Shown here piece by piece: positions 7,013 through 31,255 of a stretch of 64,000 bases of DNA. Source of the stretch: an uncultured delta proteobacterium (lineage in GTDB: Bacteria > Desulfobacterota > Binatia > UBA9968). The stretch's first letter is position 1. Every line of letters begins with the position of its first letter. The notes under the pieces are model-generated. The model was not told where the DNA came from. It saw nothing but the letters and a program-made list of their open reading frames with translations, and ran no database searches. The position numbers were made by a program, and so were the translations under genes. The stretch is taken from the NCBI GenBank assembly GCA_963728565.1, contig CAVSLC010000015.1, positions 8,546 to 72,545 on the forward strand, read 5' to 3'.

Positions 7013-7150
7013 TATAGCTTTGCGTCGTTTGGAATCGACTGAATCAATCAGCAGCCCGATCTTTCGCGATGACTCGTGTAGGACGAAAACATCTCGTCAA
7101 CTTCACTGATAATGCTTTTCAGTTTGCCTTTGTTTCGCTCTGAGGAGATG

Positions 7151-7530
7151 TAACGGGGACAGACTACTTTTTTATCTACTTCCTCATTTCGCTTAGAGCG
7201 GGTCGGCCCCGTAGAGCCATCGTACTCTCTGATTGCATGAATCGGCTCAGAGACTAATGTGCGAAGCTTCAATCACAAAGTGAAAGTGATTCGGCATTAG
7301 AGAAAGCAAGCATCTTAACTGGGTGCCGCGTTTTTGCTAGCGCGAGCATGGAAAGAAAGGCTTGGTAATCTTGAGCGTGATGGAAGATAGTTGCGCGACC
7401 GTTCCCTCGGTTAATTACATGATAAACAAAACCAGCCTGTTGCGCATGCGGGATTGTCGGCATGGCAGGCCTTTATTATATAGGCGAACGTGATCACAAC
7501 GATGAAAATAGCCTGTCACCTTTAATCCCC
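7151..7530 (-). mobile_element. RAYT family A, internally deleted element with terminal inverted repeats
   Basis: YHVINRGNGR N-terminus joined to the 3' end; ends taacggggacagactacttt / aaatagcctgtcacctttaa. Confidence 0.85.
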
Positions 7531-11630: not shown

Positions 11631-12058
11631 AACCCCCCCACACACACACATTTTCAGCCCTTGCGGTCGTTCAGACGTCGCTAAGCCCAAGTTACTGTAG
11701 AGGCTTCATAACCGCGTAGGTTTTTGTCTCTCAGTAACTAATGCCTATTTTGAAATTTTTTATGAGGAATCGAGATGTTAGACAGTCTGAGGCACATGAC
11801 GGCCCGGGAGTTTACCACGTCAGCTATGGACTCAGCGAAGACCTGTCGCTATCAGTTCCTTGTGGGTTTTTCATCTTGAAAATGCGTCGTTTTTACAAAA
11901 GTTGCCCACCAGCGAAAAGACTCTCCGTCTTCTATCCATGTGCCAACGAGAAGGGCTTCTTGATTGGAGATCATAATTTTACAGTTGGCCGTCCCTTGTA
12001 TGTGCGTATTGCCGTTAATGGCTGTGAACCCACCGCGGAACTCATTCCCTGCGGGATG

Positions 12059-12800
12059 TAAAGGGGACACGCTACTTCTTATCTACTTCCTCATTTTGCT
12101 GAAACCGGGTCGGCCCCATGAACGCATCGTACTCTCAGGTCCAATAGACCTGCAATCGACGTCTGCCAGTCTGGTTCTCCAAAAGGTCTTTAACGATTCA
12201 CTGACTAACGAATTGCAGCCAATTGCCGCGCTGATAGCGGTTCGTCCAAATGCGCCAGCCGGTCTGTCTCGACTTCGAAAGGACAGGGATCGGCCAGCTC
12301 GTTCCGACAGCAACTTGACTTACGGCCGATCATCTATCGACGCTGCCAAGCCTGATCTGACTGGATTCTGTAACACGTAGCGCACGACCATTAGCAAATG
12401 CTCATCGCGCTGCACTGGAAAACTTTTAAACCGGCCCTGCCAAACATGCCCGCTGCCGCCGTAATGCTTGTGATAACGCCGTACGTGACTGGTCAAGATC
12501 CCTTGCATGAATCGGCTCAGAGACTGGTGATGCGAAGCTCAATCAGAAAGTGAAAGTGATTCGGAATCAGAGAGAAAGCAAACAACTTAACTGGGTGCCG
12601 CGCTTTTGCTAGCGCGAGGATGCAAAGAAAGACTTGGTGATCTTGAGCTTGATGAAAGATAGTTACGCGACCGTTCCCTCGGTTGATCACATGATAAATA
12701 TAACCAGCCTGTTGCGCACGCGAGCTTCTTGGCATGGCAGGGCTTTATCATTTATGCGAACGTGATCACAAACGATGAAAGTCGCTTGTCCCTTAATCCC
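12059..12800 (-). mobile_element. RAYT family A element, near full length, transposase pseudogene (12083-12735)
   Basis: YHVINRGNGR, PNHFHF (HUH), GHVWQGRFKSFPV, RYVLQNPVR; frameshifts and stops; inverted repeats at both ends. Confidence 0.9.
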
Positions 12801-14540: not shown

Positions 14541-14680
14541 GCCGCGCCCGTTCTCCCGGTTGATCGAATGATAAAACAAAACCTGCCTCTTGCGCGCGCG
14601 GGATTCTCGGCATGGCAGGGCTTTATCATATAGGCGAACGGGATCACAACGATGAAAGTAGCCTGTCCCCTTTAATCCCC
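14541..14680 (-). mobile_element. RAYT family A 5'-end fragment
   Basis: Shares cggcatggcagggctttatcatataggcgaacg...aagtagcctgtcccctttaatcccc with the other copies. Confidence 0.8.
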
Positions 14681-14937
14681 TTCGAAAGTAAATGATCATG
14701 GCTCAACGACGCGGTGCCGTTCTCCGGCTCATTCGAAGTTAAACTCATTTTCAGAACACGCAGTCGATTAAAGCATCTAGGTACTGTGGCTCAACTAGCT
14801 AACTCCATACTTGACTTAAATGAAAAGCAGATGTTGCGAGCTGCACCTCGCAAATTGGGCGGTGACGGTCTCTAATGGACCAACATATTAACAGGCTGAC
14901 TCTGTGAGGAGTCGCCTAAGCCTAAAGGAGGTGCAGC

Positions 14938-16022
14938 ATGAAAGAGTATATAGGAGTGGACCTGGGGAAGCACAAGGCCGTGGTGGTAAAGAAAGATCGA
15001 CAGGGAAAGACAACCAGCAAGGTTACTGTACCTGTGACTCAAGCAGCATTGGAAAGTTATTTTTCGAAGCAGGACCGTCGAAGCCAGGTGGTGGTGGAGG
15101 CCACGGGGAACTGGATGTATCTCTACGAGACCATCGAGCGCTACACACCGGAGGTCGTCTTGGCACACCCACTTAAGACCCGGGCGATTGCCGAGGCACG
15201 GATTAAGACCGACACCATTGATGCGACGACCTTAGCGGAACTGCTACGTCTAGATGGCATCCCGAAAGCGTATATACCACCTCGTGAGGTTCGTGACATT
15301 CGAGAGTTGTTGCGTTACCGGGCCTCGCTGGTATCGATACGAGTCGGTATCAAGAACAAGATTCATGCGGTGCTGACCAAGAACGGCATCGATTGCACGT
15401 TCAGTGATATTTTGGGGAAATCCTCCCGGCAGTGGCTGAAGAGTCTAGCCGTGCGTGCTTGCTATCGGCTAGAGATTGATGGGTATCTACGGATCGCGGA
15501 GGCGTTGGCGATTTCGATTGGAGAGATCACAAAAACGATAAAGGCCGAGGTAGCTGAAAACCCACAGGCTCAACTATTGATGGGTATTCCGGGTATCAGC
15601 TACTACTCGGCTCTGTTAATCCTCAGTGAGATTGGTGAGGTAGACCGTTTTCCCAATGCCAAGCGATTGTGTTCGTATGCCGGCTTGGTTCCCAGTATCT
15701 ATAGCTCGGGAAGCAAGAGCTACAGCGGATCACCAAACAGGGTTCACGGTGGCTGCGATGGATTTTGGTAGAGATCAGCATCCATGCCGCCAACGGGGAT
15801 TCGAACTTTCAGAAAGTGTACCGCAGAGTGAGTCGACGACGCGGTCCTAGCACGGCGAGAGTGGCGGTAGCGCGAAAGATCCTCACTGTCATTTACGCCA
15901 TGCTAAAGCGAAGTGAGTCGTTTAACCGTCACAGACCTCGGCAACGACTTATGGCTGTACCTGGGCGAAAAAAAGTGACCGACGTCTCTGGTCATCCTCC
16001 TGGGGTCATGGTCCCGGCCTAA
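14938..16022 (+). pseudogene. IS110 transposase/recombinase with a frameshift near 15728
   Basis: DEDD motifs GVDLG, VEATG, KTDTIDA; SSG; ITKQGSRWLRWILVE restored in the next frame. Confidence 0.88.
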
Positions 16023-16200
16023 ACCGGAGATCCGAAGATTTGATTAGGAGACCAGAGTCGAATTCAATAATGTGCCGAAGAGCACGGATGAGTGACTGAC
16101 CGATTGGTCGACCGAGACCGAACAGAACTCTGGTCGCAAACAACGGCAGTGTGGGTGATTAGACTAACCCCACGCCTCCCGTGAAGAGGTGCATCTAAAC
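15984..16200 (+). ncRNA. Putative bridge/seek RNA of IS110 element 1
   Basis: Stem ctctggt/accagag plus ctcct/aggag enclosing ggggtca (reverse complement of target tgacccc); atgagtgact (16088) equals the donor junction. Confidence 0.65.
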
Positions 16201-16449
16201 GAGACCTTGACAAGTTTCTTTTCATGAGTGACCCCTTGATCCACCTCTCAGTTTTGTACAGACGCACAGCCACCAACAGGCAGTTCGTGGTGCCCTTTTC
16301 ACTGTTGACCTGCGCATCGTTGATCGGGTAATACGATTTCGGGACTACGTCCTTTACGAGTGGCTGCGAGCCTGGTCCCACGTAACAACGTGTACACAGT
16401 TTTCAAAGCCCGGCTCTGACCGAGAAAGCTTTAGGGTAAGGGAGACAAG

Positions 16450-17415
16450 GTGAAAGCATTCATCAGCATATTGATCCCAACTCAAGGTCGAATCGATCAA
16501 CTGAGGCGGCTGTTGCGTAGCTTGTCGCGGCTGGACGGTCGAGAAAATGTTGAACACGAAATCATCGTCTGCAACAACGCGCCGGACGATGTGAAAGCCC
16601 GCTCCGTAGAAGGTATCGTCAAGTATTACGTTGCAAAAGAGCCGAAACGATGGCACCTGGCGCGAGAACCCTTGCCTGGTAAAAGCCGCGCCTTAAATAA
16701 GATTATTCCGCTTTCAAGAGGGCAGATCCTGGGATTCTTAGACGATGACGTGGAGGTAAATTCCTCATGGCTGCAAGCTACTTGCAATTTCTTTTCTCAT
16801 CATTCCTTTGACGTAATGCAAGGATCTATTCTCGTACCGCCGGAGATGGCTGGTGATGAAAAGTTTCTTAAGCTGCTGAATCGTTATCGAACGATCTGTT
16901 ACTACCAGAAGCCTGGATTGGAAGTCAGGGAGATCCGCACTCTCAATGCAGCCAATATCGCGTTCAGACGCGAACTTCTTGAGAAGACAGATCTTTTCGA
17001 CGAGCGCATCGGTCCAGGTCAGTCGGGAACCTCAATGGATGTGGAGTTTGGCGAAAGAGTCCTGAGGAACGGAGGACGGATTGGCTACGATCCCAGTTCT
17101 ATTGTATACCACGAGGTCGACTGGAATCGCCTCACTGAGGATTATTTTCGTTTGCGTCATGAGAGGCAAGGAAGAAGCCGCCTCCTTTATAAATCCAGTT
17201 CACTACCAACTATTATGGGAGATTTGATCCGGGCTACGTGCGGTCTGGGTCTCTATTCGCTATTGAACGACGAACGTAAAAAGTATCGCGCCAAAGGCCG
17301 GTATTTTCATTATCGGGCCATGCTTGGCGAGAAAATTCGCCGCTCAGCTTGGCGCATGCGGCAGGTGCAGGGCGAACTATCACGTGAGCCAAGTGGCCGG
17401 CCGCCGTCGCTGTGA
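16450..17415 (+). CDS. Glycosyltransferase family 2
   Basis: ISILIPT, GKSRALN, FLDDD, FDERIG, DVEF. Confidence 0.9.
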   Translation: MKAFISILIPTQGRIDQLRRLLRSLSRLDGRENVEHEIIVCNNAPDDVKARSVEGIVKYYVAKEPKRWHLAREPLPGKSRALNKIIPLSRGQILGFLDDDVEVNSSWLQATCNFFSHHSFDVMQGSILVPPEMAGDEKFLKLLNRYRTICYYQKPGLEVREIRTLNAANIAFRRELLEKTDLFDERIGPGQSGTSMDVEFGERVLRNGGRIGYDPSSIVYHEVDWNRLTEDYFRLRHERQGRSRLLYKSSSLPTIMGDLIRATCGLGLYSLLNDERKKYRAKGRYFHYRAMLGEKIRRSAWRMRQVQGELSREPSGRPPSL

Positions 17416-17481
17416 TTGTCGACTGCGAATTGTTTGTATCGGTCACTGTCGGACTCAATCACTGCCGAGGTTAGTTTTCGT

Positions 17482-18591
17482 ATGAGATCGCCTTCATCAC
17501 GTTATTCGAATCGCGAGAGCCGGTTTCGCGTGATGTACATAGTTAAAAATTATCCACAGATGTCCGAGACTTATATCAAAACCGAGATCGAAGCCGTTGC
17601 TGAGCGCTGCGACGTTAGCGTCTTAGCAACAAGAAAAGCTAACTTGCCGGCAAAAGAGCATATGCCATTCAAGTTGGTTGAGGATACTTCAGCAATTGGT
17701 GAAGCCATAGAGGCGTTCCAGCCGGATGTTCTTCACAGTCACTGGTTAAATTCGGTGAAGATACTCGGCAAATTCGCGCGAAAGCTGAATATTCCGTTCA
17801 CAGTGAGGGCGCATTCTTTCGACTCGATTTGGCAGGAGAATAAGACGGCCTTTGACTTTCTGCCCTTTGTTCGTTCGTTCCGTCTACCATCTCGAATCCG
17901 CCGGGCCGTATCCCTTATCAACGACGACCTCTGTCTTGGTATTCTCGCGTTTCCCTTCGCCCGTGCCCGCTTGGAGAGGGCGGGCATTCGCGGTGACAAG
18001 ATCGTTGATTGCTATCCGGTGGTGAATTACCGTCGGTTTCATGACGAATCGCCAAACGGCGAAGCCATCATGAACGTTGGCGCGGCTATTCGGAAAAAAA
18101 AGATGGAGGACTTCATTGAGCTAAGCACCCTGGCTCCCAAGTTACAGTTCAATCTCTACGCTTTAGGATATAATGTGGAGCAGTTGCGGCAACTCAGCAT
18201 CGACAAAGCAAGCCCAGTCAATTTTATTTCACCCATCGAATTGGAGGATATGCCTGCCGAGTATAAGAAACACCGCTGGTTGGTTTATACAGCCGCAAAA
18301 GACGGAAGAGTCGGCTGGCCCATGTCTGTCGCAGAAGCTCAGGCGGCCGGGGTCGGTGTCTGCATGGCAAATATCCGGCCGGATTTGCGTGAGTATGTGG
18401 GTCCGGCCGGCTTTTTGTACGATTCACTCAGTCAAGTGCTGGAGATCATCTCCAAACCGTTTCCGGCGGAATTGCGAGAGATGGGCTTTGAGCACGCAAA
18501 GAAATCCGACATTTTTTCGCACCGCGCCTCGCTGTTCAAGCTTTGGCAAAAGGCGAACTCAGCTCACTCAGTTCAAGGTTCCCTATCATAG
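17482..18591 (+). CDS. GT-B fold (GT4-like) glycosyltransferase
   Basis: YPQMSETYI, HSHW, VGWPMSVAEAQAAG. Confidence 0.75.
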   Translation: MRSPSSRYSNRESRFRVMYIVKNYPQMSETYIKTEIEAVAERCDVSVLATRKANLPAKEHMPFKLVEDTSAIGEAIEAFQPDVLHSHWLNSVKILGKFARKLNIPFTVRAHSFDSIWQENKTAFDFLPFVRSFRLPSRIRRAVSLINDDLCLGILAFPFARARLERAGIRGDKIVDCYPVVNYRRFHDESPNGEAIMNVGAAIRKKKMEDFIELSTLAPKLQFNLYALGYNVEQLRQLSIDKASPVNFISPIELEDMPAEYKKHRWLVYTAAKDGRVGWPMSVAEAQAAGVGVCMANIRPDLREYVGPAGFLYDSLSQVLEIISKPFPAELREMGFEHAKKSDIFSHRASLFKLWQKANSAHSVQGSLS

Positions 18592-18616: not shown

Positions 18617-19188
18617 CTGGGTCAGGCATGAGTTATTGACTTGTTGAGCCAACGCTGCAACTCCGATTCTGATCGCTTGTCCCGTTTCTCCACATACGCC
18701 GCGTGCAGCCGGCTAATCATCGATGCGTCGCGATGGAGGTGTTCTGCCGAACTCTCCATTTGATCCCGCATCACTCCCGCGCCGCATAGACCAACAACGA
18801 TCGCGGCTCTGCCCAGCTTCGCTTGCGTTCCGTGCGCAGCAGTCGCCCTGCTTCAATGCTATACAGCGACGCCACCCGCTCCACCAAGCGGGTAAATTTA
18901 ACCTTAACCTTTGCCGGCTCCGTTTCCTTTGTCTTCTTCTCAACTTCGTTGACAAACCGCTCGTCGCCTAAAAATCGTTGCTCTACCGTCTGATAGAGAC
19001 GATCCAGGTGCCCCTGACCCAGTCCCTCTTTGATAAAACCATGATACCCTCTTCGGGCAACGCTCGGATTGGACCCGAACTGCTTCAGCACGGAGCTGCT
19101 CTGAATCGTGACCGGAGTGTGTTCTCCGGCATAGGCCCGATGGCTGCTCCAGCGTGGCGCAACTAGCTAACTCCATACTTGACCCCTT
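18617..19188 (-). mobile_element. RAYT family B, internally deleted element (C-terminal half with helical tail)
   Basis: WSSHRAY, FLGDERFV, DASMISR; ends gggtcaggc ... cttgacccc. Confidence 0.7.
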
Positions 19189-19406
19189 AACCCCCTCCGC
19201 CGTGGAAAAGCAGCCGCCTGTTTCGTAGCCGTCGAACCGCGGAAACAACTTGAGCGGCATTGATTCAGAGAGCTAGAGAGGCTAAATCTTTGGTTAGCAT
19301 AATCAGTTCTCCTACAGAATGCTGTGCCCAGATAGGCGACTAAGCGTCAACCAAGACTAATTTCTATTTGCTATCAGCGATTTCATAGACAGAAAGAAGA
19401 AGCAAA

Positions 19407-21157: not shown

Positions 21158-21180
21158 CAGTTACGCTGCGGCAATAATAC

Positions 21181-21413
21181 ATCAGAGAGAAAGCAAACAT
21201 CTTAACTGGGTACCGCGCTTTGCTAGCGCACGGATGGAAAGAAAGGCTTGGTAATCTTGAGCTTCAAAAGGTCGTTCTGCGACCGTTCCTCGGTTGATCA
21301 CATGATAAACAAAACCAGCCTGTTGCGCATGCGGGATTCTCGGCAGGGCAGGGCTTTATCAAATAGACGCACGTGATCACAAACGAGAAAAGTAGCCTGT
21401 CCCCTTTAATCCC
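21181..21413 (-). mobile_element. RAYT family A 5'-end fragment
   Basis: Closely matches the other copies; ends aaaagtagcctgtcccctttaatccc. Confidence 0.85.
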
Positions 21414-23510: not shown

Positions 23511-23632
23511 TTGGCCGCCTCCGTTTCCGCAAAATTAAGCGCTCGAAGTTGGCGTTATCCATAGCCGAGAACTCTAACAACCGATCAACCAAAAGAAAAT
23601 GCTTTTCTGAGGAAATCGTCAAACTGGAGGTG

Positions 23633-23950
23633 TAAAGGGGAGAGGCTACTTTTTATCTACTTCCTCATTTCGCTGAGACTGGTGATGCGAAGCTTCAATC
23701 AGAAAGTGCAAGTGATTCGGCATCAGAGCGAAAGCAAACATCTTAACTGGGTGCCGCGCTTTGCTAGCGCGAGGATGGAAAGAAAGACTTGGTAATCTTG
23801 AGCTTTATCAGAGATAGTTGCACGACCGTTACCTCGATTGATCACATGATAAATGAAACCAGCCTGTTGCGCACGTCGGCATGGCAGGGCTTTCATACAG
23901 GCGAACGTGATCACAGACGATGAAAGTAGCCTATCCCCTTTAATCCCCCC
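23633..23950 (-). mobile_element. RAYT family A miniature element (both ends, internal deletion)
   Basis: taaaggggagaggctactttt ... aagtagcctatcccctttaa. Confidence 0.85.
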
Positions 23951-24170
23951 GATTTGAACATGGTTCGCGCCCGAGTGGTTACGCATCCCTGTGATTGGAC
24001 ACACAGCGGCGCATCGCGAAGTCATTGAAAGTGGCGGTACATATGAGCTCCGGGAGCAGACTCAAAGTTATGGGTCCAATTTCGGCGGTTAAATGAGGTG
24101 CTAAGCTTGGATATACTAGCTTCTGGAACGAAGATTTAAACCTAGTGCAACTTAGGCTTGGTCCGACCCC
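23951..24170 (+). mobile_element. RAYT family C deleted fragment with an intact cttggtccgacccc end
   Basis: Matches 26399-26451 joined to ~26687-26850. Confidence 0.75.
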
Positions 24171-26314: not shown

Positions 26315-26850
26315 TTCGTCACGGCGCATTTTGGAGACCGCTATCATGCCACGGCCATCGAGATTAACGAGCAACTTCAACATTGTCTCGTTTACATCGA
26401 TTTGAATATAGTTCGCGCCGGAGTCGTTACGCATCCCTGTAATTGGACACACGCGGGTTATCGAGAGATGCAGAAACCCCCCGAAGCGCTACGGGATTAT
26501 CGATCTACCGGAGTTAAGTTCGCTATGTGGATTCGGCGACGTTGCAACATTTCAGCAAGCACATCGTCGGTGGGTAGATGATTCACTCGCGCGCGAGGCG
26601 ATGGCAAGAGAAGGTGCGTGGTCAGAAGCGATTGCGGTCGGCAATTTGAATTTTGTTGATAAGGTGCAGAACGAACTCGGATACAAAGCGGCACACCGCG
26701 AAGTCATTGAAAGTGGCGGTACATATGAGCTCCGGGAGCAGACTGAAAGTTATGGGTCCAATTTTAGCGGTCAAAATGAGGTGCTAAGCTCGGAGAACAC
26801 TAGATTTTGGAACGAAAGTTCCGAAGTTACTGCAACTTAGCTTGGTCCGA
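26315..26850 (+). pseudogene. RAYT family C transposase, 3' half
   Basis: AFW..RYHATAIE, CLVYIDLNIVRAGVVTHP..W, WSEAIAVG. Confidence 0.8.
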
Positions 26851-26928: not shown

Positions 26929-27945
26929 ATGAAATTGTACGGAGCTATTGATTTGCATTCCAACAACAACGTGACGGTGGTGATCAACGAGCAAGATCAA
27001 GTGTTGTATCAGAAGCGCTTGCCCAACGATCTTTCGTTGATCGCGCAGCAACTCTCGAGCTATCGCAGATCGCTACAGGGAATCGTGGTGGAGTCTACCT
27101 ATAACTGGTACTGGCTGGTCGATGGACTGATGGAGAAGGGCCATCAAGTTCATCTGGCCAACACCGCGGCGATCCAGCAATACAATGGGCTGAAGTACAC
27201 CGATGACCACAGCGACGCGCGGTGGCTGGCCCATCTGCTGCGGCTAGGGGTCTTACCCGAGGGCTACATTTATCCCAAGGAAGAGCGAGCGGTGCGTGAT
27301 TTGTTGCGCAAGCGCGGCCAGCTCGTGCATCAGAGGACGGCTAATCTTCTCAGTATCCAGAGTCTAATCAGCCGGACCACGGGAAACTCGATCGGCACCC
27401 AGTACATCAAAGCGCTCAATATCGAACATCTGGATGGAGTCTTACCTAACCCGGATCACATCCTTGCACTCAAAGCCAATCTGGCAGTCATGAAAAGCGC
27501 TGATGCCCAGATCGAGATCTTGGAAAAAGCCGTCCAGGACCGAGTCAAGCTACGACCTCAGTTCGGATTTCTAAAGACGGTACCCGGAATCGGGCCGATC
27601 CTGGCGCTGACGATCATGCTCGAGACCGGAGAGATCGAGAGATTTGCCTGTGTCGGCAATTACGCTTCGTACTGTCGCTGTGTGGGGAGCCAGAAGATCA
27701 GCAACGGCAAACGTAAAGGAATCGGCAATACCAAAAACGGCAACAAGTATTTGGCCTGGGCGTTTGTAGAGGCTGCCAATTTTGCGATCCGGTTTAATTC
27801 GAAGATCAAAGGCTTCTATCAGAAAAAGAAATCTAAGAGCAATGGGATTGTGGCAATCAAAGCGGTGGCCCACAAGCTCTGCCGGGCTTGCTACTACATT
27901 ATCAAAGATCAGGTGGCTTTTGATCTCACCAAAGCGTTTGCTTAG
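26929..27945 (+). CDS. IS110 transposase/recombinase, intact
   Basis: AIDLH, VVEST, TDDHSDA, VPGIG, SNG, NKYLAWAFVEAA. Confidence 0.93.
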   Translation: MKLYGAIDLHSNNNVTVVINEQDQVLYQKRLPNDLSLIAQQLSSYRRSLQGIVVESTYNWYWLVDGLMEKGHQVHLANTAAIQQYNGLKYTDDHSDARWLAHLLRLGVLPEGYIYPKEERAVRDLLRKRGQLVHQRTANLLSIQSLISRTTGNSIGTQYIKALNIEHLDGVLPNPDHILALKANLAVMKSADAQIEILEKAVQDRVKLRPQFGFLKTVPGIGPILALTIMLETGEIERFACVGNYASYCRCVGSQKISNGKRKGIGNTKNGNKYLAWAFVEAANFAIRFNSKIKGFYQKKKSKSNGIVAIKAVAHKLCRACYYIIKDQVAFDLTKAFA

Positions 27946-29914: not shown

Positions 29915-30184
29915 AGAAACCTCCCTTGACTCTGTATGCCACTCTTAATACGCCACCACCGTTACCGTCAAATTCTTTTTATGAAAGCAGCCATTTGATT
30001 TTTTAATGCCTGCACGGGGGAATCAAAAGCCTGAGATTTCCGCAAATCGAACCAACATCAATGGCGAGGAAAAGCACTCTTAAGCCGCAGTTTGTTCAAC
30101 ACCAAACCATTACGCTAGAGATTTCAACATGAACTTTTCGCAACCTTAAAACTGGTCGCCGACACTTACACGGCTCAAGAGCCA

Positions 30185-30457
30185 TTGCATGAATCGGCTC
30201 AGAGACTGGTGATGCGAAGCTTCAATTACAAAGTGAAAGTGATTCGGCATCAGAGCGAAGCAAACCTTAACTGGGTGCCGCGCTTTGCTAGCGCGAGGAT
30301 GGAAAGAAAGGCTTGGTAATCTTGAGCTTTATGAAAGATAGTTGCGCCGACCGACCGTGATTGATCACATGATAAACAAAACCAGCCTGTTGCGCGCGCG
30401 GATTCTCGGCATGACAGGGGCTTTATCATATAGGCGAACGGGATCACAAACGATGAA
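30185..30457 (-). mobile_element. RAYT family A 5' fragment
   Basis: ATIFHKAQDYQAFLSILALAK; closely matches the other copies. Confidence 0.85.
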
Positions 30458-31255
30458 GGACGAGTGCGGGAGTAATGAACTTCGTGCGGATGTCCGCTTC
30501 GGTGAGTTCCTTTTTATTCATGCCAAGTAGCAGCTCGAAGGACCGGCAGGGTTAAAGTATCGCTCATACCGGGATGGGAGCTCGGGAAATACTAATCGAA
30601 GTGGCTGGAATTGCGCAAGACTTCTCAGAAGGCAGGGTCATCAGGTTGCCGCGTGAGTTATTGATTTGTTTGCCTGCAACTACCCACTTTGGAGATCGCA
30701 GCCGTTCAAAGGTTCAACGAAAGACAAGTCAGATGCGAACTCCACGTTTCGAGAATTCCCGAAATGTCGAAATGGCAATTCTAATACCGACCTGGAAATT
30801 GGAAAACTTCTCGTCGCCAGCTAACGGGTTCCCATCTTTGTATTTTGACGTTTTCGTTTTCTGTTGGGTCTCACCACGTGGTCAACGTGAGAGCACCGTC
30901 CTTTGTTTCAGTTTGGACGAATTCTTCGGGATAACCCAACAAACCCGGCAGAAGGCCTGATGAGTACCGGAGATCGATCGTGTTAAGTCTATCTAAAAGC
31001 ACTATTTCTAGCCCGCGCACCGCCATCCACCCGGCGATCAGTGCCGCAGTCACCGGGGCAAACTGAACCGTGCCCATCGGCACCCGGCACCGTCCGCGCA
31101 GCGCGGGAAGACCATGGGCTTAGGCATGAGTCGGGATTATCATTATATTGACCACGCGGGAGGTGGATGCTAGCGTTTGGGCCTGGTAGAGGATCACTAT
31201 CGAGCGGCTGCTGTTGTGCTGTGAACGGGGCTATCAAGCCCGGGAAGGAGCTCTT

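What the first reader, a model, noticed from the sequence alone, without database searches (positions are those of the whole stretch)
14786..16240. IS1111-type element 1: readable target and donor guides plus an empty target in the same window
Seen: removing 14816-16232 gives ...aactagctaactccatacttgacccctt, which matches 19161-19188, the end of RAYT family B. A hairpin (15986-16057) has an internal loop with ggggtca (exact reverse complement of target tgacccc) opposite atttgat (resembles target acttgac). Downstream, atgagtgact (16088-16097) equals the predicted circle junction (atgagtgac|t). Established: IS110/IS1111 recombinases use bridge/seek RNAs with target- and donor-binding loops. Inference: the guide programme can be read directly, and the first loop overlaps the transposase 3' end.
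Basis: partly seen in the sequence, partly recalled or inferred. Interest (0 to 1): 0.75.

Follow-up and report, generated by a model that had tools for sequence, protein, structure and literature searches.

The report
Decayed IS1111 element, readable bridge RNA
This is a broken copy of a known kind of RNA-guided jumping gene whose guide RNA, insertion site and a still-empty target can all be read from the DNA; it is an ordinary, if unusually legible, member of its family.

Summary
Window 14816-16232 is an IS110-family element of the IS1111 type. It has 8-bp subterminal inverted repeats, a DEDD transposase and a long 3' non-coding end. Removing it recreates a 45-nt site that stands empty at 19154-19198.

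The 3' end encodes a two-loop bridge/seek RNA of about 150 nt (15986-16135). Its helices covary across 21 relatives (481 of 481 cells paired, 9 of 23 pairs compensatory). All four guides covary with DNA in up to 66 relatives:
- the target loop reads ...AYY-TG-ACCC(C/T)
- the donor loop reads the right-end tip (ATGAG-TG) and the left-end tip (TG-ATTAAAT).

- The crossover core is TG.
- The last letters of "atgagtgact" match the target's right side (handshake-type letters, 51 of 54 loci), not the circle junction.
- A second donor guide (16061-70) was missed.
- The overlap with the transposase 3' end is read-through; 331-aa relatives stop just before the hairpin.

The target is the outer tip of the terminal repeat of RAYT-like (Y1 transposase) units. 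The window copy is dead: -4 nt frameshift, +3 nt in the junction-promoter spacer, +1 C at the left junction. It is a new member of a known kind. No direct RNA evidence beyond a weak metatranscriptome hint.

The parts
14771..14815 (+). Left half of the occupied target site. Left target CATACT is at 14806-14811, core TG at 14812-13, A at 14814. There is a copy-specific extra C at 14815.
   Evidence: Matches 19154-19183. The extra C is absent from the 13 other left junctions and from run X15's junction.
14816..16232 (+). The true ends are ambiguous by the shared TG(A) core. The family consensus is TG|ATTAAATG...GAGTG|ACCC.
14820..14827 (+). Left subterminal inverted repeat, ATGAAAAG.
   Evidence: Read. 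Conserved in all relatives.
14938..16022 (+). Broken DEDD transposase gene. Frame 1 runs 14938-15771 and frame 2 runs 15765-16022. A 4-nt deletion behind 15726, relative to intact relatives, breaks the 362-aa frame.
   Evidence: Pfam PF01548 and PF02371. Alignment to L004. Intact 362-aa ORF in L004. Runs X15 and X1 carry the 4 nt. NCBIfam NF033542 scores 227.8 bits on L004.
15986..16135 (+). Predicted bridge/seek RNA of about 150 nt. It comprises the target-binding stem-loop, the donor-binding stem-loop and a third hairpin. The ends are not determined.
   Evidence: The run X17 contig spans 15956-16131 only.
16002..16008 (+). Right target guide GGGGUCA, on the 5' side of loop 1. It pairs with top-strand TG-ACCCC.
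   Evidence: Right-flank positions 1-3 pair in 74 of 75 cells (24-25 of 25 per position). Position 4 pairs in 22 of 25, 8 of them by wobble.
16034..16045 (+). Left target guide GAAGAUU, then core UG, then AUU, on the 3' side of loop 1. [quoted passage not shown] AU(U) matches the IS left end (handshake-type).
   Evidence: Covariation with left flanks. The AU letters equal the left-end letters in 43 of 49 loci and never equal the target's right side, 0 of 44.
16061..16070 (+). Right donor guide AAUUCAAUAA, on the 5' side of loop 2. It pairs with top-strand TG-ATTAAAT of the left end. In this copy 7 of 10 positions pair.
   Evidence: 40 of 48 variable-spacer positions pair across 12 distinct guide/end pairs, against 31.2 +/- 2.4 in shuffles (0 of 20000 reach it).
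16072..16085 (+). Apical hairpin of the donor loop, GUGCC-GAAGA-GCAC.
   Evidence: Helix 3 (5 pairs, all cells paired, 1 compensatory).
16088..16097 (+). Left donor guide AUGAG, then core UG, then AC (handshake-type, matches the target's right side), then U.
   Evidence: Identical to the right-end tip in 25 of 25 loci across 3 sequence types. Identical in 53 of 54 in the wider set. AC/TC/AA/AG equals the right flank in 51 of 54.
16106..16119 (+). Third hairpin, GGUC-GACCGA-GACC.
   Evidence: Helix 4 (4 pairs, 2 compensatory).
16207..16212 (+). TTGACA, the -35 half of a junction promoter that is completed by the left end only in the circle. In this copy the spacer is 4 nt too long.
   Evidence: 52 of 54 loci have it 15-17 nt from the core with a TNNNAT hexamer at 16-18 nt. 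The window copy has it 18 nt from the core plus the extra C.
16218..16225 (+). Right subterminal inverted repeat, CTTTTCAT.
   Evidence: Read. Conserved.
16231..16247 (+). Right half of the occupied target site (ACCCCTTGATCCACCTC).
   Evidence: Aligns to 19182-19198.
19154..19198 (+). Empty paralogous target site. Core TG is at 19180-81 and ACCCC at 19182-86.
18771..19166 (-). N-terminally truncated RAYT-like gene fragment (Y1-transposase family with a DnaA_C-like HTH). Its end abuts the empty site.
   Evidence: It is 27% identical (E 2e-9) to residues 137-264 of the intact unit on contig C7.

Best explanation
Window 14816-16232 is a decayed copy of an IS110-family insertion sequence of the IS1111 type. 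In its functional relatives the element is inferred to work as follows.

1. The element excises as a circle.
2. Joining the right and left ends builds a promoter: the -35 TTGACA comes from the right end, and a TNNNAT -10 comes from the first letters of the left end.
3. The transcript carries tnp and, at its 3' end, a bridge (seek) RNA of about 150 nt with two stem-loops, each holding an internal loop.
4. Loop 1 binds the target. [quoted passage not shown] 5. Loop 2 binds the donor junction. [quoted passage not shown] 6. The DEDD/serine recombinase exchanges strands at the TG core. Two letters beyond the core on each 3'-side guide match the other partner: AU matches the left end, and AC matches the target's right side. 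This is the handshake design of IS621.
7. The product is ...AYY-TG-ATTAAATG...GAG-TG-ACCC... .

The preferred target is the outer tip of the terminal inverted repeat of RAYT-like (Y1 transposase) units and their solo repeats.

Shown here: the anatomy, the empty site, the RNA helices, and covariation of all four guides and of the donor-loop handshake letters with DNA. Inferred from the family: that the RNA is made and bound, the circle, and the chemistry.

The window copy itself is inactive, although its guides are intact.
For: Family.
- Pfam PF01548 (E 4.5e-21) and PF02371 (E 6.8e-15) on the 277-aa piece.
- NCBIfam NF033542 'IS110 family RNA-guided transposase', 227.8 bits against a cut-off of 140, on the intact orthologue.
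- 8-bp subterminal inverted repeats. The left end is 122 nt and the right end after the stop is 210 nt.

Target.
- Three copies sit at A(C/T)TTGA|CCCC in unrelated flanks: the window copy, the internally deleted copy on contig C28, and L004 in another MAG.
- There is an empty site in the window.

Structure.
- On 21 sequences with 52-100% transposase identity, 481 of 481 cells pair. 9 of 23 pairs have changes on both sides. Slid controls reach at most 43.7% paired.
- The apical stem of loop 1 has 5 compensatory pairs in the near group.

Guides.
- Left target guide against left flank: 142 of 208 positions pair across 26 distinct pairs, against 125.5 +/- 4.3 in shuffles (0 of 20000 reach it). Position -1 has three states and agrees in 24 of 26.
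- Right target guide: flank positions 1-3 pair in 74 of 75 cells (24-25 of 25 per position).
- Left donor guide equals the right-end tip in 25 of 25 loci (types ATGAGTGA, ATAGGTGA, ATACGTGA).
- Right donor guide against the 4-nt left-end spacer (TTAA, TAGG, TAGC, TGTG): 40 of 48 pair, against 31.2 +/- 2.4 (0 of 20000 reach it).
- Handshake letters of the donor loop equal the right flank in 51 of 54 loci, in four states (AC, TC, AA, AG). They never equal the left end, 0 of 44.
- Handshake letters of the target loop equal the left end in 43 of 49 loci and never the right flank, 0 of 44.

Other support.
- Junction promoter geometry is present in 52 of 54 loci.
- The order of guides (top-strand match 5' of bottom-strand match) is the one reported for IS1111 seekRNAs (PMC11187229, sections 9 and 14, read).
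- Weak expression hint: a 176-nt contig of metatranscriptome run X17 covers only 15956-16131.
Against: - There is no direct evidence that the RNA exists, where it starts and ends, or that it binds the protein. Contigs from RNA libraries cannot show transcription.
- No Rfam family matches at gathering score. At E up to 10 on 14780-16300 there are only four matches, taken as chance: bits 15-17 against gathering scores of 37-70, and none on the RNA region.
- The shuffling controls ignore relatedness of the loci, so their counts overstate independence.
- Left-target position -4 pairs in only 15 of 26 cases. Positions -7 to -9 do not pair.
- In the window's group the right donor guide pairs at only 7 of 10 positions and mismatches the G of the core.
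- The target-loop handshake partner (AT of the left end) never varies, so that half is not a covariation test.
- For ISEc11 an 82-nt short seekRNA without the second domain sufficed for transposition (PMC11187229, section 10). The donor loop may therefore not be essential.
- 95 of the 161 fetched loci did not match my pattern and were not examined.
- The window copy cannot act: -4 nt in tnp, +3 nt at about 16215, extra C at 14815. No intact gene of this type is found in the 80.55%-complete assembly.
Confidence: 0.88

Rival explanations
1. Only the first stem-loop (the short seekRNA-like hairpin 15986-16057) is a functional guide. The second domain would be a processing or precursor remnant. 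The IS ends would be recognised by the protein through the subterminal inverted repeats, so the 'donor guides' do not guide.
For: - For ISEc11 the 82-nt short seekRNA alone supported transposition, at 42% against about 15% with the long form (PMC11187229, section 10).
- The authors identified only target matches, and state that end recognition may differ from IS110.
- In the window's group the right donor guide pairs at only 7 of 10 positions.
Against: - Both sides of loop 2 covary with the IS ends. The left donor guide agrees in 25 of 25 loci over three types. The right donor guide pairs at 40 of 48 positions, with 0 of 20000 shuffles reaching that.
- The two letters past the core follow the target's right side in four states, 51 of 54. 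This is hard to explain without a role in recombination.
- Helices of the second domain keep pairing through compensatory changes.
- Durrant et al. predicted donor loops in IS1111 elements (PMC11208160, passages).
Confidence: 0.08
2. The internal copies of end and target sequences act as DNA, not RNA. They would be subterminal protein-binding repeats or a decoy site in the right end, and the hairpin would be the transcription terminator or mRNA-stabilising structure of tnp.
For: - The left guides have the same sense as the DNA they match, so identity alone cannot tell RNA from DNA.
- The hairpin sits at the very end of the gene.
- The fold z-scores are modest, -1.97 and -2.54.
Against: - The right guides are reverse complements, not copies.
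- The four guides sit precisely on the two sides of two internal loops of helices that covary, with 100% of cells paired.
- No run of T follows the hairpin.
- The G/U-for-R/Y tolerance fits RNA-DNA wobble pairing, not protein reading.
- The arrangement equals that of experimentally proven relatives (PMC11187229, PMC11208160).
Confidence: 0.03
3. The matches in the window are chance, and the 45-nt 'empty site' is just a short dispersed repeat unrelated to IS targeting.
For: - Single 7-mers are short.
- ATGAGTGAC twice in 64 kb was reached by 5 of 100 shuffles.
- The loose motif A[CT][CT]TGACCC[CT] is not enriched in the genome, 37 seen against 73.5 expected.
Against: - About 50 independent junctions from other assemblies obey the same rules.
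- The covariation statistics do not fit chance.
- The joined flanks equal the empty site over 45 nt.
Confidence: 0.01

Closest known systems
IS1111-group elements with seekRNA (ISEc11, ISPa11, ISKpn4, ISPst6; Siddiquee et al. 2024, PMC11187229: sections 6, 8, 9, 10, 13, 14 read)
   Same: - DEDD transposase with the GL-P----SG motif.
- Subterminal inverted repeats.
- Long non-coding region downstream of tnp.
- Two short target matches that overlap in the target, with the top-strand match 5' of the bottom-strand match.
- Sizes: the first hairpin is 72 nt and the whole RNA is about 150 nt, against the reported short (82-96 nt) and long (about 150-172 nt) forms.
- A promoter formed at the circle junction.
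- Natural re-direction by changes in the guide letters.
   Different: - The transposase is only about 40% identical to the best plasmid-borne relatives. No named IS was matched.
- The 362-aa frame runs 12 codons into the first stem-loop, whereas 331-aa relatives stop just before it.
- In the sections I read, that paper reports target matches only. Here donor guides and handshake-type letters are also readable by covariation.
IS621 bridge RNA (IS110 group; Durrant et al. 2024, PMC11208160; Hiraizumi et al. 2024, PMC11208158: passages read)
   Same: - The first internal loop binds the target and the second binds the donor.
- Each loop reads the left half on the bottom strand and the right half on the top strand, overlapping at a dinucleotide core.
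- The 3'-side guides carry two letters that match the non-cognate partner (handshake guides).
- One recombinase with RuvC-like and Tnp domains.
   Different: - The RNA lies in the right end downstream of tnp, not in the left end upstream.
- Within each loop the order is mirrored: the 5' side reads the right half on the top strand.
- The core is TG, not CT.
- The subterminal repeats are long (8 bp, against 2-3 bp).
- If the DNA is viewed flipped, the two RNAs have the same topology. That is my inference.
[quoted passage not shown]
   Same: An IS1111-type element whose fixed target is the tip of the terminal repeat of another mobile element, in one orientation.
   Different: - The host element here is a RAYT-like Y1-transposase unit with 28-nt inverted repeats and its solo repeats, not a Tn3-family transposon.
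- No Tn3-type transposase was found in the 19 flank ORFs scanned.
REP-targeting IS110/IS1111 elements (ISPa11, ISPpu9/ISPpu10, IS621; Tobes and Pareja 2006 title seen in a reference list; ISPpu9 paper PMC12288879, passages read)
   Same: - Insertion at one position of a short repeated intergenic palindrome-associated sequence.
- An internally deleted, MITE-like derivative in the same genome (contig C28).
   Different: - ISPpu9 minicircles do not form a hybrid promoter (PMC12288879 abstract). This lineage keeps one in 52 of 54 loci.
- That the repeats here are true REPs mobilised by the RAYT-like gene is not shown.

Membership tests
IS110 family (DEDD transposase) | N-terminal DEDD/RuvC-like domain plus C-terminal Transposase_20 domain | tested here: met
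   PF01548 at residues 5-147 (E 4.5e-21) and PF02371 at residues 211-268 (E 6.8e-15) on the window's 277-aa piece. NF033542 scores 227.8 bits against a cut-off of 140 on the intact orthologue L004.
IS1111 group | Subterminal inverted repeats of 7-17 bp, with a few extra bases outside them | tested here: met
   ATGAAAAG at 14820-27 and CTTTTCAT at 16218-25, which is 8 bp. There are 4-5 nt outside on the left and 6-7 nt on the right. They are conserved in relatives. The range is quoted from PMC11208160.
IS1111 group | Longer non-coding region downstream of tnp | tested here: met
   The left end is 122 nt (14816-14937). The right end after the stop is 210 nt (16023-16232), and longer in 331-aa relatives.
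IS1111 group | GL-P----S(T)G motif in the C-terminal domain | tested here: met
   AGLVPSIYSSG, read in the ORF. The motif is taken from PMC11187229, section 6.
IS1111 group | Transposase length 330-350 aa | tested here: not met
   The intact orthologue is 362 aa. The excess is a tail that reads into the RNA gene. Relatives with 53-55% identity are 331 aa and stop just 5' of the hairpin. I read this as a variant, not an exclusion.
IS1111 group | Transposase groups with IS1111 relatives in a tree | not tested
   No named IS1111 or IS110 reference proteins were fetched. The best plasmid hits are about 40% identical and annotated only as 'IS110 family transposase'.
Bridge/seek RNA | Structured RNA with two internal loops | tested here: met
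   23 pairs in 4 helices, 481 of 481 cells paired, 9 pairs compensatory; the apical stem of loop 1 has 5 compensatory pairs.
Bridge/seek RNA | Loop letters complementary to both strands of the target, overlapping at the core, and covarying with targets | tested here: met
Bridge/seek RNA | Loop letters matching both IS ends (donor) and covarying with them | tested here: met
Bridge/seek RNA | Handshake letters that match the non-cognate partner | tested here: met
   Donor loop: 51 of 54 equal the right flank in four states, and 0 of 44 equal the left end. Target loop: 43 of 49 equal the left end, and 0 of 44 equal the right flank, but that partner does not vary. The definition is from PMC11208158.
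Bridge/seek RNA | The RNA is expressed and co-purifies with the transposase, and is required for transposition | tested here: inconclusive
   Only contigs of RNA libraries were available. The run X17 contig covers 15956-16131 alone, and run X15 contigs cover parts of tnp and the RNA. Binding and requirement are not testable with these tools.
Junction promoter (as for ISEc11) | A -35 box in the right end and a -10 box in the left end at 16-18 nt only when the ends are joined | tested here: met
   52 of 54 loci. It is not met by the window copy itself, where the spacing is about 20 nt. Activity was not tested.

The most novel reading that the evidence does not exclude
This IS1111 lineage may show, by natural variation alone, a complete mirrored IS621-type programme, with three linked features.

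1. [quoted passage not shown] This implies that the first strand exchange is on the strand that is 'bottom' relative to tnp.
2. The programmable left-end letters read by the right donor guide are at the same time the -10 box of the junction promoter (TNNNAT). Donor identity and expression would therefore be coupled.
3. The right target guide has stayed fixed on TG-ACCC across transposases down to about 50% identity, while only the left guide drifts. This would be a lineage specialised on the tips of RAYT/REP-type repeats.

I found no description of handshake letters for IS1111-type elements. This rests on the passages read and on the search listing, and is not proof that none is in print.
Probability: 0.45. 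Interest if true: 0.45.

Novelty: new member of a known kind. Interest (0 to 1): 0.33.

Why it matters
RNA-guided IS110/IS1111 recombinases are being developed as programmable DNA-insertion tools. Most mechanistic work is on IS621 (IS110 group).

This locus and its roughly 65 relatives give a naturally varied set for the IS1111 group. Target guides, donor guides, the core (TG) and handshake-type letters can all be read and checked against real insertion sites, including an empty site 2.9 kb away. The set suggests simple design rules for this group:
- about 6 + 2 + 4 nt of target are read
- G and U in the left guide tolerate purine and pyrimidine variants
- the donor spacer doubles as a -10 box.

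It also points to intact orthologues, such as the 362-aa gene in L004, that could be tested.

Biologically it is one more case of an IS living on the ends of another mobile element (RAYT-like units). For the genome itself the copy is a dead remnant.

Tried and rejected
1. Core TGA or TGAC, as the duplicated letters in the window suggest. Rejected for TG. In the eight loci of the L044 group (seven with a right junction recovered) the left junction reads TG-A and the right junction TG-T.

2. Target is the inverted repeat of a Tn3-family transposon, because its reverse complement starts GGGGTC. Not supported. The 19 flank ORFs scanned from 11 relatives encode unrelated proteins or nothing recognisable: glycosyltransferase, Sel1, Uma2, PilZ, TatD, an IS5-like transposase, and one Y1_Tnp+HTH. 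None is a Tn3 transposase. The repeat belongs to a RAYT-like unit.

3. The right target guide is frozen because it codes for G-V-M of the transposase tail. Rejected. In 331-aa relatives the stop precedes the hairpin and GGGGUCA is still kept.

4. RNAalifold's pairing of AGUC (16055-58) with the GACU inside the donor guide. I prefer GUC (16057-59) with GAC (16098-16100), after the CU. In L041 and L042 the 5' strand reads CUC and the letters after CU read GAG (read by eye). MAFFT put a gap there, so the count (3 pairs, no compensatory change) does not test this.

5. A third segment, ACUCUGGUC (16127-35), covaries 11 of 11 with GACCAGAG (16050-57) in the near group (read by eye from the A2 alignment). 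This suggests an alternative helix. No equivalent was seen in the distant group. It is left unexplained.

6. Rfam. Nothing at gathering score in the window. At E up to 10 on 14780-16300 there are only four matches, taken as chance: bits 15-17 against gathering scores of 37-70, and none on the RNA region.

8. Sequencing runs. All are contigs, so there are no starts, ends, strand or level, and no joint (circle junction) was seen in X1, X15, X16 or X17. The parts of the IS without cover in the RNA runs say nothing.

9. Enrichment of the loose target motif in the genome. It is not enriched, 37 seen against 73.5 expected.

10. The RAYT-B fragment has no second copy at E 1e-3 or better by tblastn in the assembly. 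In this genome 'family B' is therefore this fragment plus more distant units such as the one on C7.
Full report
**1. What is in the window**

The stretch 14816-16232 carries an open frame of 277 aa (14938-15771). It has the two domains of IS110-family transposases: PF01548 (E 4.5e-21) and PF02371 (E 6.8e-15). A second frame of 85 aa continues to a TAA at 16020-22.

A copy that is 98% identical at protein level in another MAG (L004) has one intact 362-aa frame. It scores 227.8 bits against a cut-off of 140 on NCBIfam NF033542, 'IS110 family RNA-guided transposase'.

Relative to L004 the window copy differs in three ways:
- it lacks 4 nt behind 15726, which is the frameshift
- it has 3 extra nt near 16215
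- it has an extra C at 14815.

Contigs of runs X15 and X1 also carry the 4 nt, and X1 lacks the 3 nt.

The element has 8-bp subterminal inverted repeats, ATGAAAAG (14820-27) and CTTTTCAT (16218-25). The left end is 122 nt and the right end after the stop is 210 nt. The motif AGLVPSIYSSG is present. These are the marks of the IS1111 group as given in PMC11187229 section 6 and PMC11208160.

The assembly is 80.55% complete. It holds only this copy and an internally deleted derivative on contig C28 (positions 1-252 plus 1072-1417). It holds no intact gene of this type.

**2. The observation**

- The excised flanks equal 19161-19188, and the match runs over 45 nt, 19154-19198.
- The 45-nt repeat occurs only at these two places in the genome.
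- ACTTGACCCC is uninterrupted only at the empty site.
- The hairpin and the three short matches are at the stated places.

**3. Independent insertions**

The three close copies sit in unrelated flanks:
- window: ...CATACTTGA(C)|TTAAATG...GAGTGA|CCCCTT
- C28: ...CAAGACTTGA|...|CCCCCG
- L004: ...AAAGATTTGA|...|CCCCGG.

A further junction...CAACTCCAGACTTGA|, appears as a loose end in run X15.

I then fetched relatives with a 30-protein alignment.
- From metagenome contigs, 524 of 601 candidate stretches encode a relative, and 80 loci were kept.
- From species-representative genomes, 233 of 287 do, and 79 loci were kept.
- All 13 other left junctions of the near group (66-98% identity) read TGA|TTAAATG, without the window's extra C.

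**4. The RNA structure**

I used 21 distinct sequences from transposases 52-100% identical. They were chosen from the 33 loci parsed. I left out duplicates and truncated loci, and L083 and L092 because my end anchor failed on them.

A structure of four helices was counted on this set:
- the basal stem of loop 1
- the closing stem of loop 2
- the apical hairpin of loop 2
- a third hairpin.

The result was 481 of 481 cells paired, 9 of 23 pairs changed on both sides, and at most 43.7% paired when the partners were slid. In the near group the apical stem of loop 1 adds 5 compensatory pairs.

The span 15986-16135 is 150 nt and the first hairpin is 72 nt. Compare the short (82-96 nt) and long (about 150-172 nt) seekRNAs tabulated in PMC13604230 from PMC11187229.

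**5. Target guides**

The 5' side of loop 1, GGGGUCA, is the reverse complement of TGACCCC.
- Across 25 distinct guide/flank pairs, the first three right-flank letters (CCC) pair in 74 of 75 cells (24-25 of 25 per position).
- The fourth letter pairs in 22 of 25, 8 of them by G.T wobble.
- Later letters do not pair.

The 3' side has the same sense as the top strand and varies with the left flank:
- AUUUGA with A(C/T)TTGA
- AUACUUGA with ATACTTGA
- GCCUGA with (A/G)CCTGA
- AAGAUGUGA with AAGATGTGA
- AAGCCUGA with AAGCCTGA.

Over 26 distinct pairs and 8 positions, 142 of 208 can pair. Shuffled assignments give 125.5 +/- 4.3, and 0 of 20000 reach the observed value.

By position, -1 to -3 and -5 pair almost always: 25, 25, 26 and 26 of 26, wobbles included. 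Position -4 pairs in only 15 of 26, and -7 to -9 do not pair. Where RNA and DNA differ they mostly do so as RNA G over top-strand A, or RNA U over top-strand C. These are wobble pairs to the bottom strand.

These tests ignore relatedness, so they overstate independence.

**6. Donor guides**

It is identical in 25 of 25 loci, and in 53 of 54 in the wider set.

The partner guide lies on the 5' side of loop 2, at window 16061-70 (AAUUCAAUAA). It is roughly the reverse complement of TG-A, the 4-nt spacer, and ATG of the left end. The spacer varies (TTAA, TAGG, TAGC, TGTG) and the guide follows. Across 12 distinct pairs, 40 of 48 spacer positions pair, against 31.2 +/- 2.4 in shuffles, and 0 of 20000 reach it. 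In the window's own group only 7 of 10 positions pair.

**7. Core and handshake letters**

A looser pattern found the same architecture in 66 of the 161 loci L004-L164. The other 95 did not match and were not examined.

Eight loci form the L044 group; seven of them have a right junction recovered. In this group the left junction reads TG-A and the right junction TG-T. The right target guide is GGGGACA and the donor guide reads ...GUG-UC. The shared core is therefore TG.

The two letters after the core on the 3'-side donor guide equal the first two letters of the right flank in 51 of 54 loci. This holds in four states: AC, TC, AA and AG. The misses are L049 and L052, plus one mis-parsed locus, L083. 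These letters never equal the first two letters of the left end, 0 of 44.

The matching letters on the 3'-side target guide (AU) equal the left end in 43 of 49 loci and never the right flank, 0 of 44. That partner never varies, so this half is not a covariation test.

This is the handshake design described for IS621. There, extensions of the 3'-side guides pair with the non-cognate DNA after the first strand exchange (PMC11208158, passages).

It is not the circle junction. It looked like the junction only because this copy has the extra C.

[quoted passage not shown] Here the 5' side reads the right half on the top strand. This is the order reported for IS1111 seekRNAs. Viewed with the DNA flipped, the two RNAs have the same layout; that is my inference.

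**8. Junction promoter**

In 52 of 54 loci with both ends, TTGAC(A/T/G) lies 15-17 nt from the core in the right end. Joining the ends then puts a TNNNAT hexamer, formed from left-end letters, at a 16-18-nt spacing. The hexamer has 4-5 of 6 matches to TATAAT.

The window copy has 18 nt plus the extra C, which puts it out of register. Together with the frameshift, this shows a dead copy whose guides are still intact.

**9. Overlap with tnp**

In the 362-aa forms the last 12 codons (...GHPPGVMVPA) run through the basal stem and the right target guide, and the stop sits in the apical loop.

In 331-aa relatives the stop lies immediately 5' of the basal stem, yet GGGGUCA is kept. The overlap is therefore a read-through tail. 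The apparent conservation of the tail reflects the RNA.

**10. What the target is**

Left flanks of relatives encode unrelated genes. Many of them nevertheless share longer strings, such as TGTCAACAAAAGATTTGA in L004, in L089, and twice on the window genome's contig C7.

On C7 these two copies are the 28-nt inverted repeats (93% complementary, 963 nt apart) of a unit. The unit encodes a 319-aa protein with Y1_Tnp (E 2.7e-12) and a DnaA_C-like HTH. The gene's TGA stop lies in the repeat and holds the core.

The fragment next to the window's empty site (18771-19166, minus strand) matches residues 137-264 of that protein (27% identity, E 2e-9).

On C28 and in L102 the IS sits about 25 nt after the end of such a gene or its remnant.

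The element thus targets the outer tip of RAYT-like terminal repeats and their solo copies. Whether these repeats are mobile REPs was not tested.

**11. Expression**

No Rfam family matches. All four laid runs are contigs.
- A 176-nt contig of RNA library X17 covers only 15956-16131.
- X15 covers parts of tnp and the RNA.
- No joint was seen.

This is a weak hint, not evidence of transcription.

**12. Verdict**

This is a well-supported, decayed member of the IS1111 group with a complete, legible bridge/seek-RNA programme.

The kind has been known since 2024. In the passages I read I did not see two details set out for IS1111 elements: donor-loop and handshake covariation, and a donor spacer that doubles as the -10 box. 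The search found no paper treating handshake guides in IS1111 elements. That is not proof that none is in print, and supplements of the key papers were not consulted.

Noticed in passing
window 26929-27945 (+): A second IS110-family transposase gene of 338 aa, with PF01548 and PF02371. It is only 27% identical to the one studied. Repeats D6 and D13 (23950-24093 against 26398-26775) lie just upstream. Its ends and RNA were not examined.
   Followed up: partly
window 7150-7520, 12057-12792, 14555-14670, 21180-21403, 23631-23926, 30170-30470: Several families of dispersed direct repeats of 50-200 nt at 60-95% identity (D1-D5, D8, D14). By eye, some end with what look like the C-terminal codons of RAYT-like genes. 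Their ends (...CATCTTAACTGGG) do not match this IS's guides.
   Followed up: no
window 14771-16247 and 19154-19198: The occupied and the empty 45-nt sites are direct repeats. They bracket 2.9 kb holding two genes (16450-17415, glycosyltransferase-like; 17416-18591, no family hit) and the truncated RAYT-like fragment. Why a 45-nt site is duplicated in direct orientation is unexplained.
   Followed up: partly
window 16127-16135 against 16050-16057 and 15986-15993: Three segments covary together in the near group (A/G with U/C, 11 of 11 Watson-Crick for 16050-57 with 16127-35). The 3' strand of the basal stem could therefore pair with either partner, suggesting an alternative helix or a closing helix of the long form. 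It was not seen in the more distant group.
   Followed up: partly
G000 contig C7:33787-34805 (locus L171 488-1506): An apparently intact RAYT-like unit. A 319-aa Y1_Tnp + DnaA_C-like gene is framed by 28-nt inverted repeats, and the gene's stop codon lies inside the right repeat. The same 22-nt repeat tip occurs in MAGs labelled delta proteobacterium (L004) and Methylomirabilia (L089).
   Followed up: partly
L089 about 2706-2793 (right flank of that IS): The flank holds an unoccupied copy of the full target (…AAAGATTTGACCCCTTATT), followed by two further GACCCCTTATT-like repeats. This is a small tandem array of target tips.
   Followed up: no
G000 contig C28:59685-60278 (-): An internally deleted, MITE-like derivative of the IS (positions 1-252 joined to 1072-1417). 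It keeps both ends and the whole RNA region. Its right inverted repeat is altered (CTTTTAAT) and one hairpin strand is changed.
   Followed up: partly
L013 and L014: Two metagenome loci share the same IS and the same right flank but have different left flanks. This could be an assembly chimera or a rearrangement at the IS.
   Followed up: no
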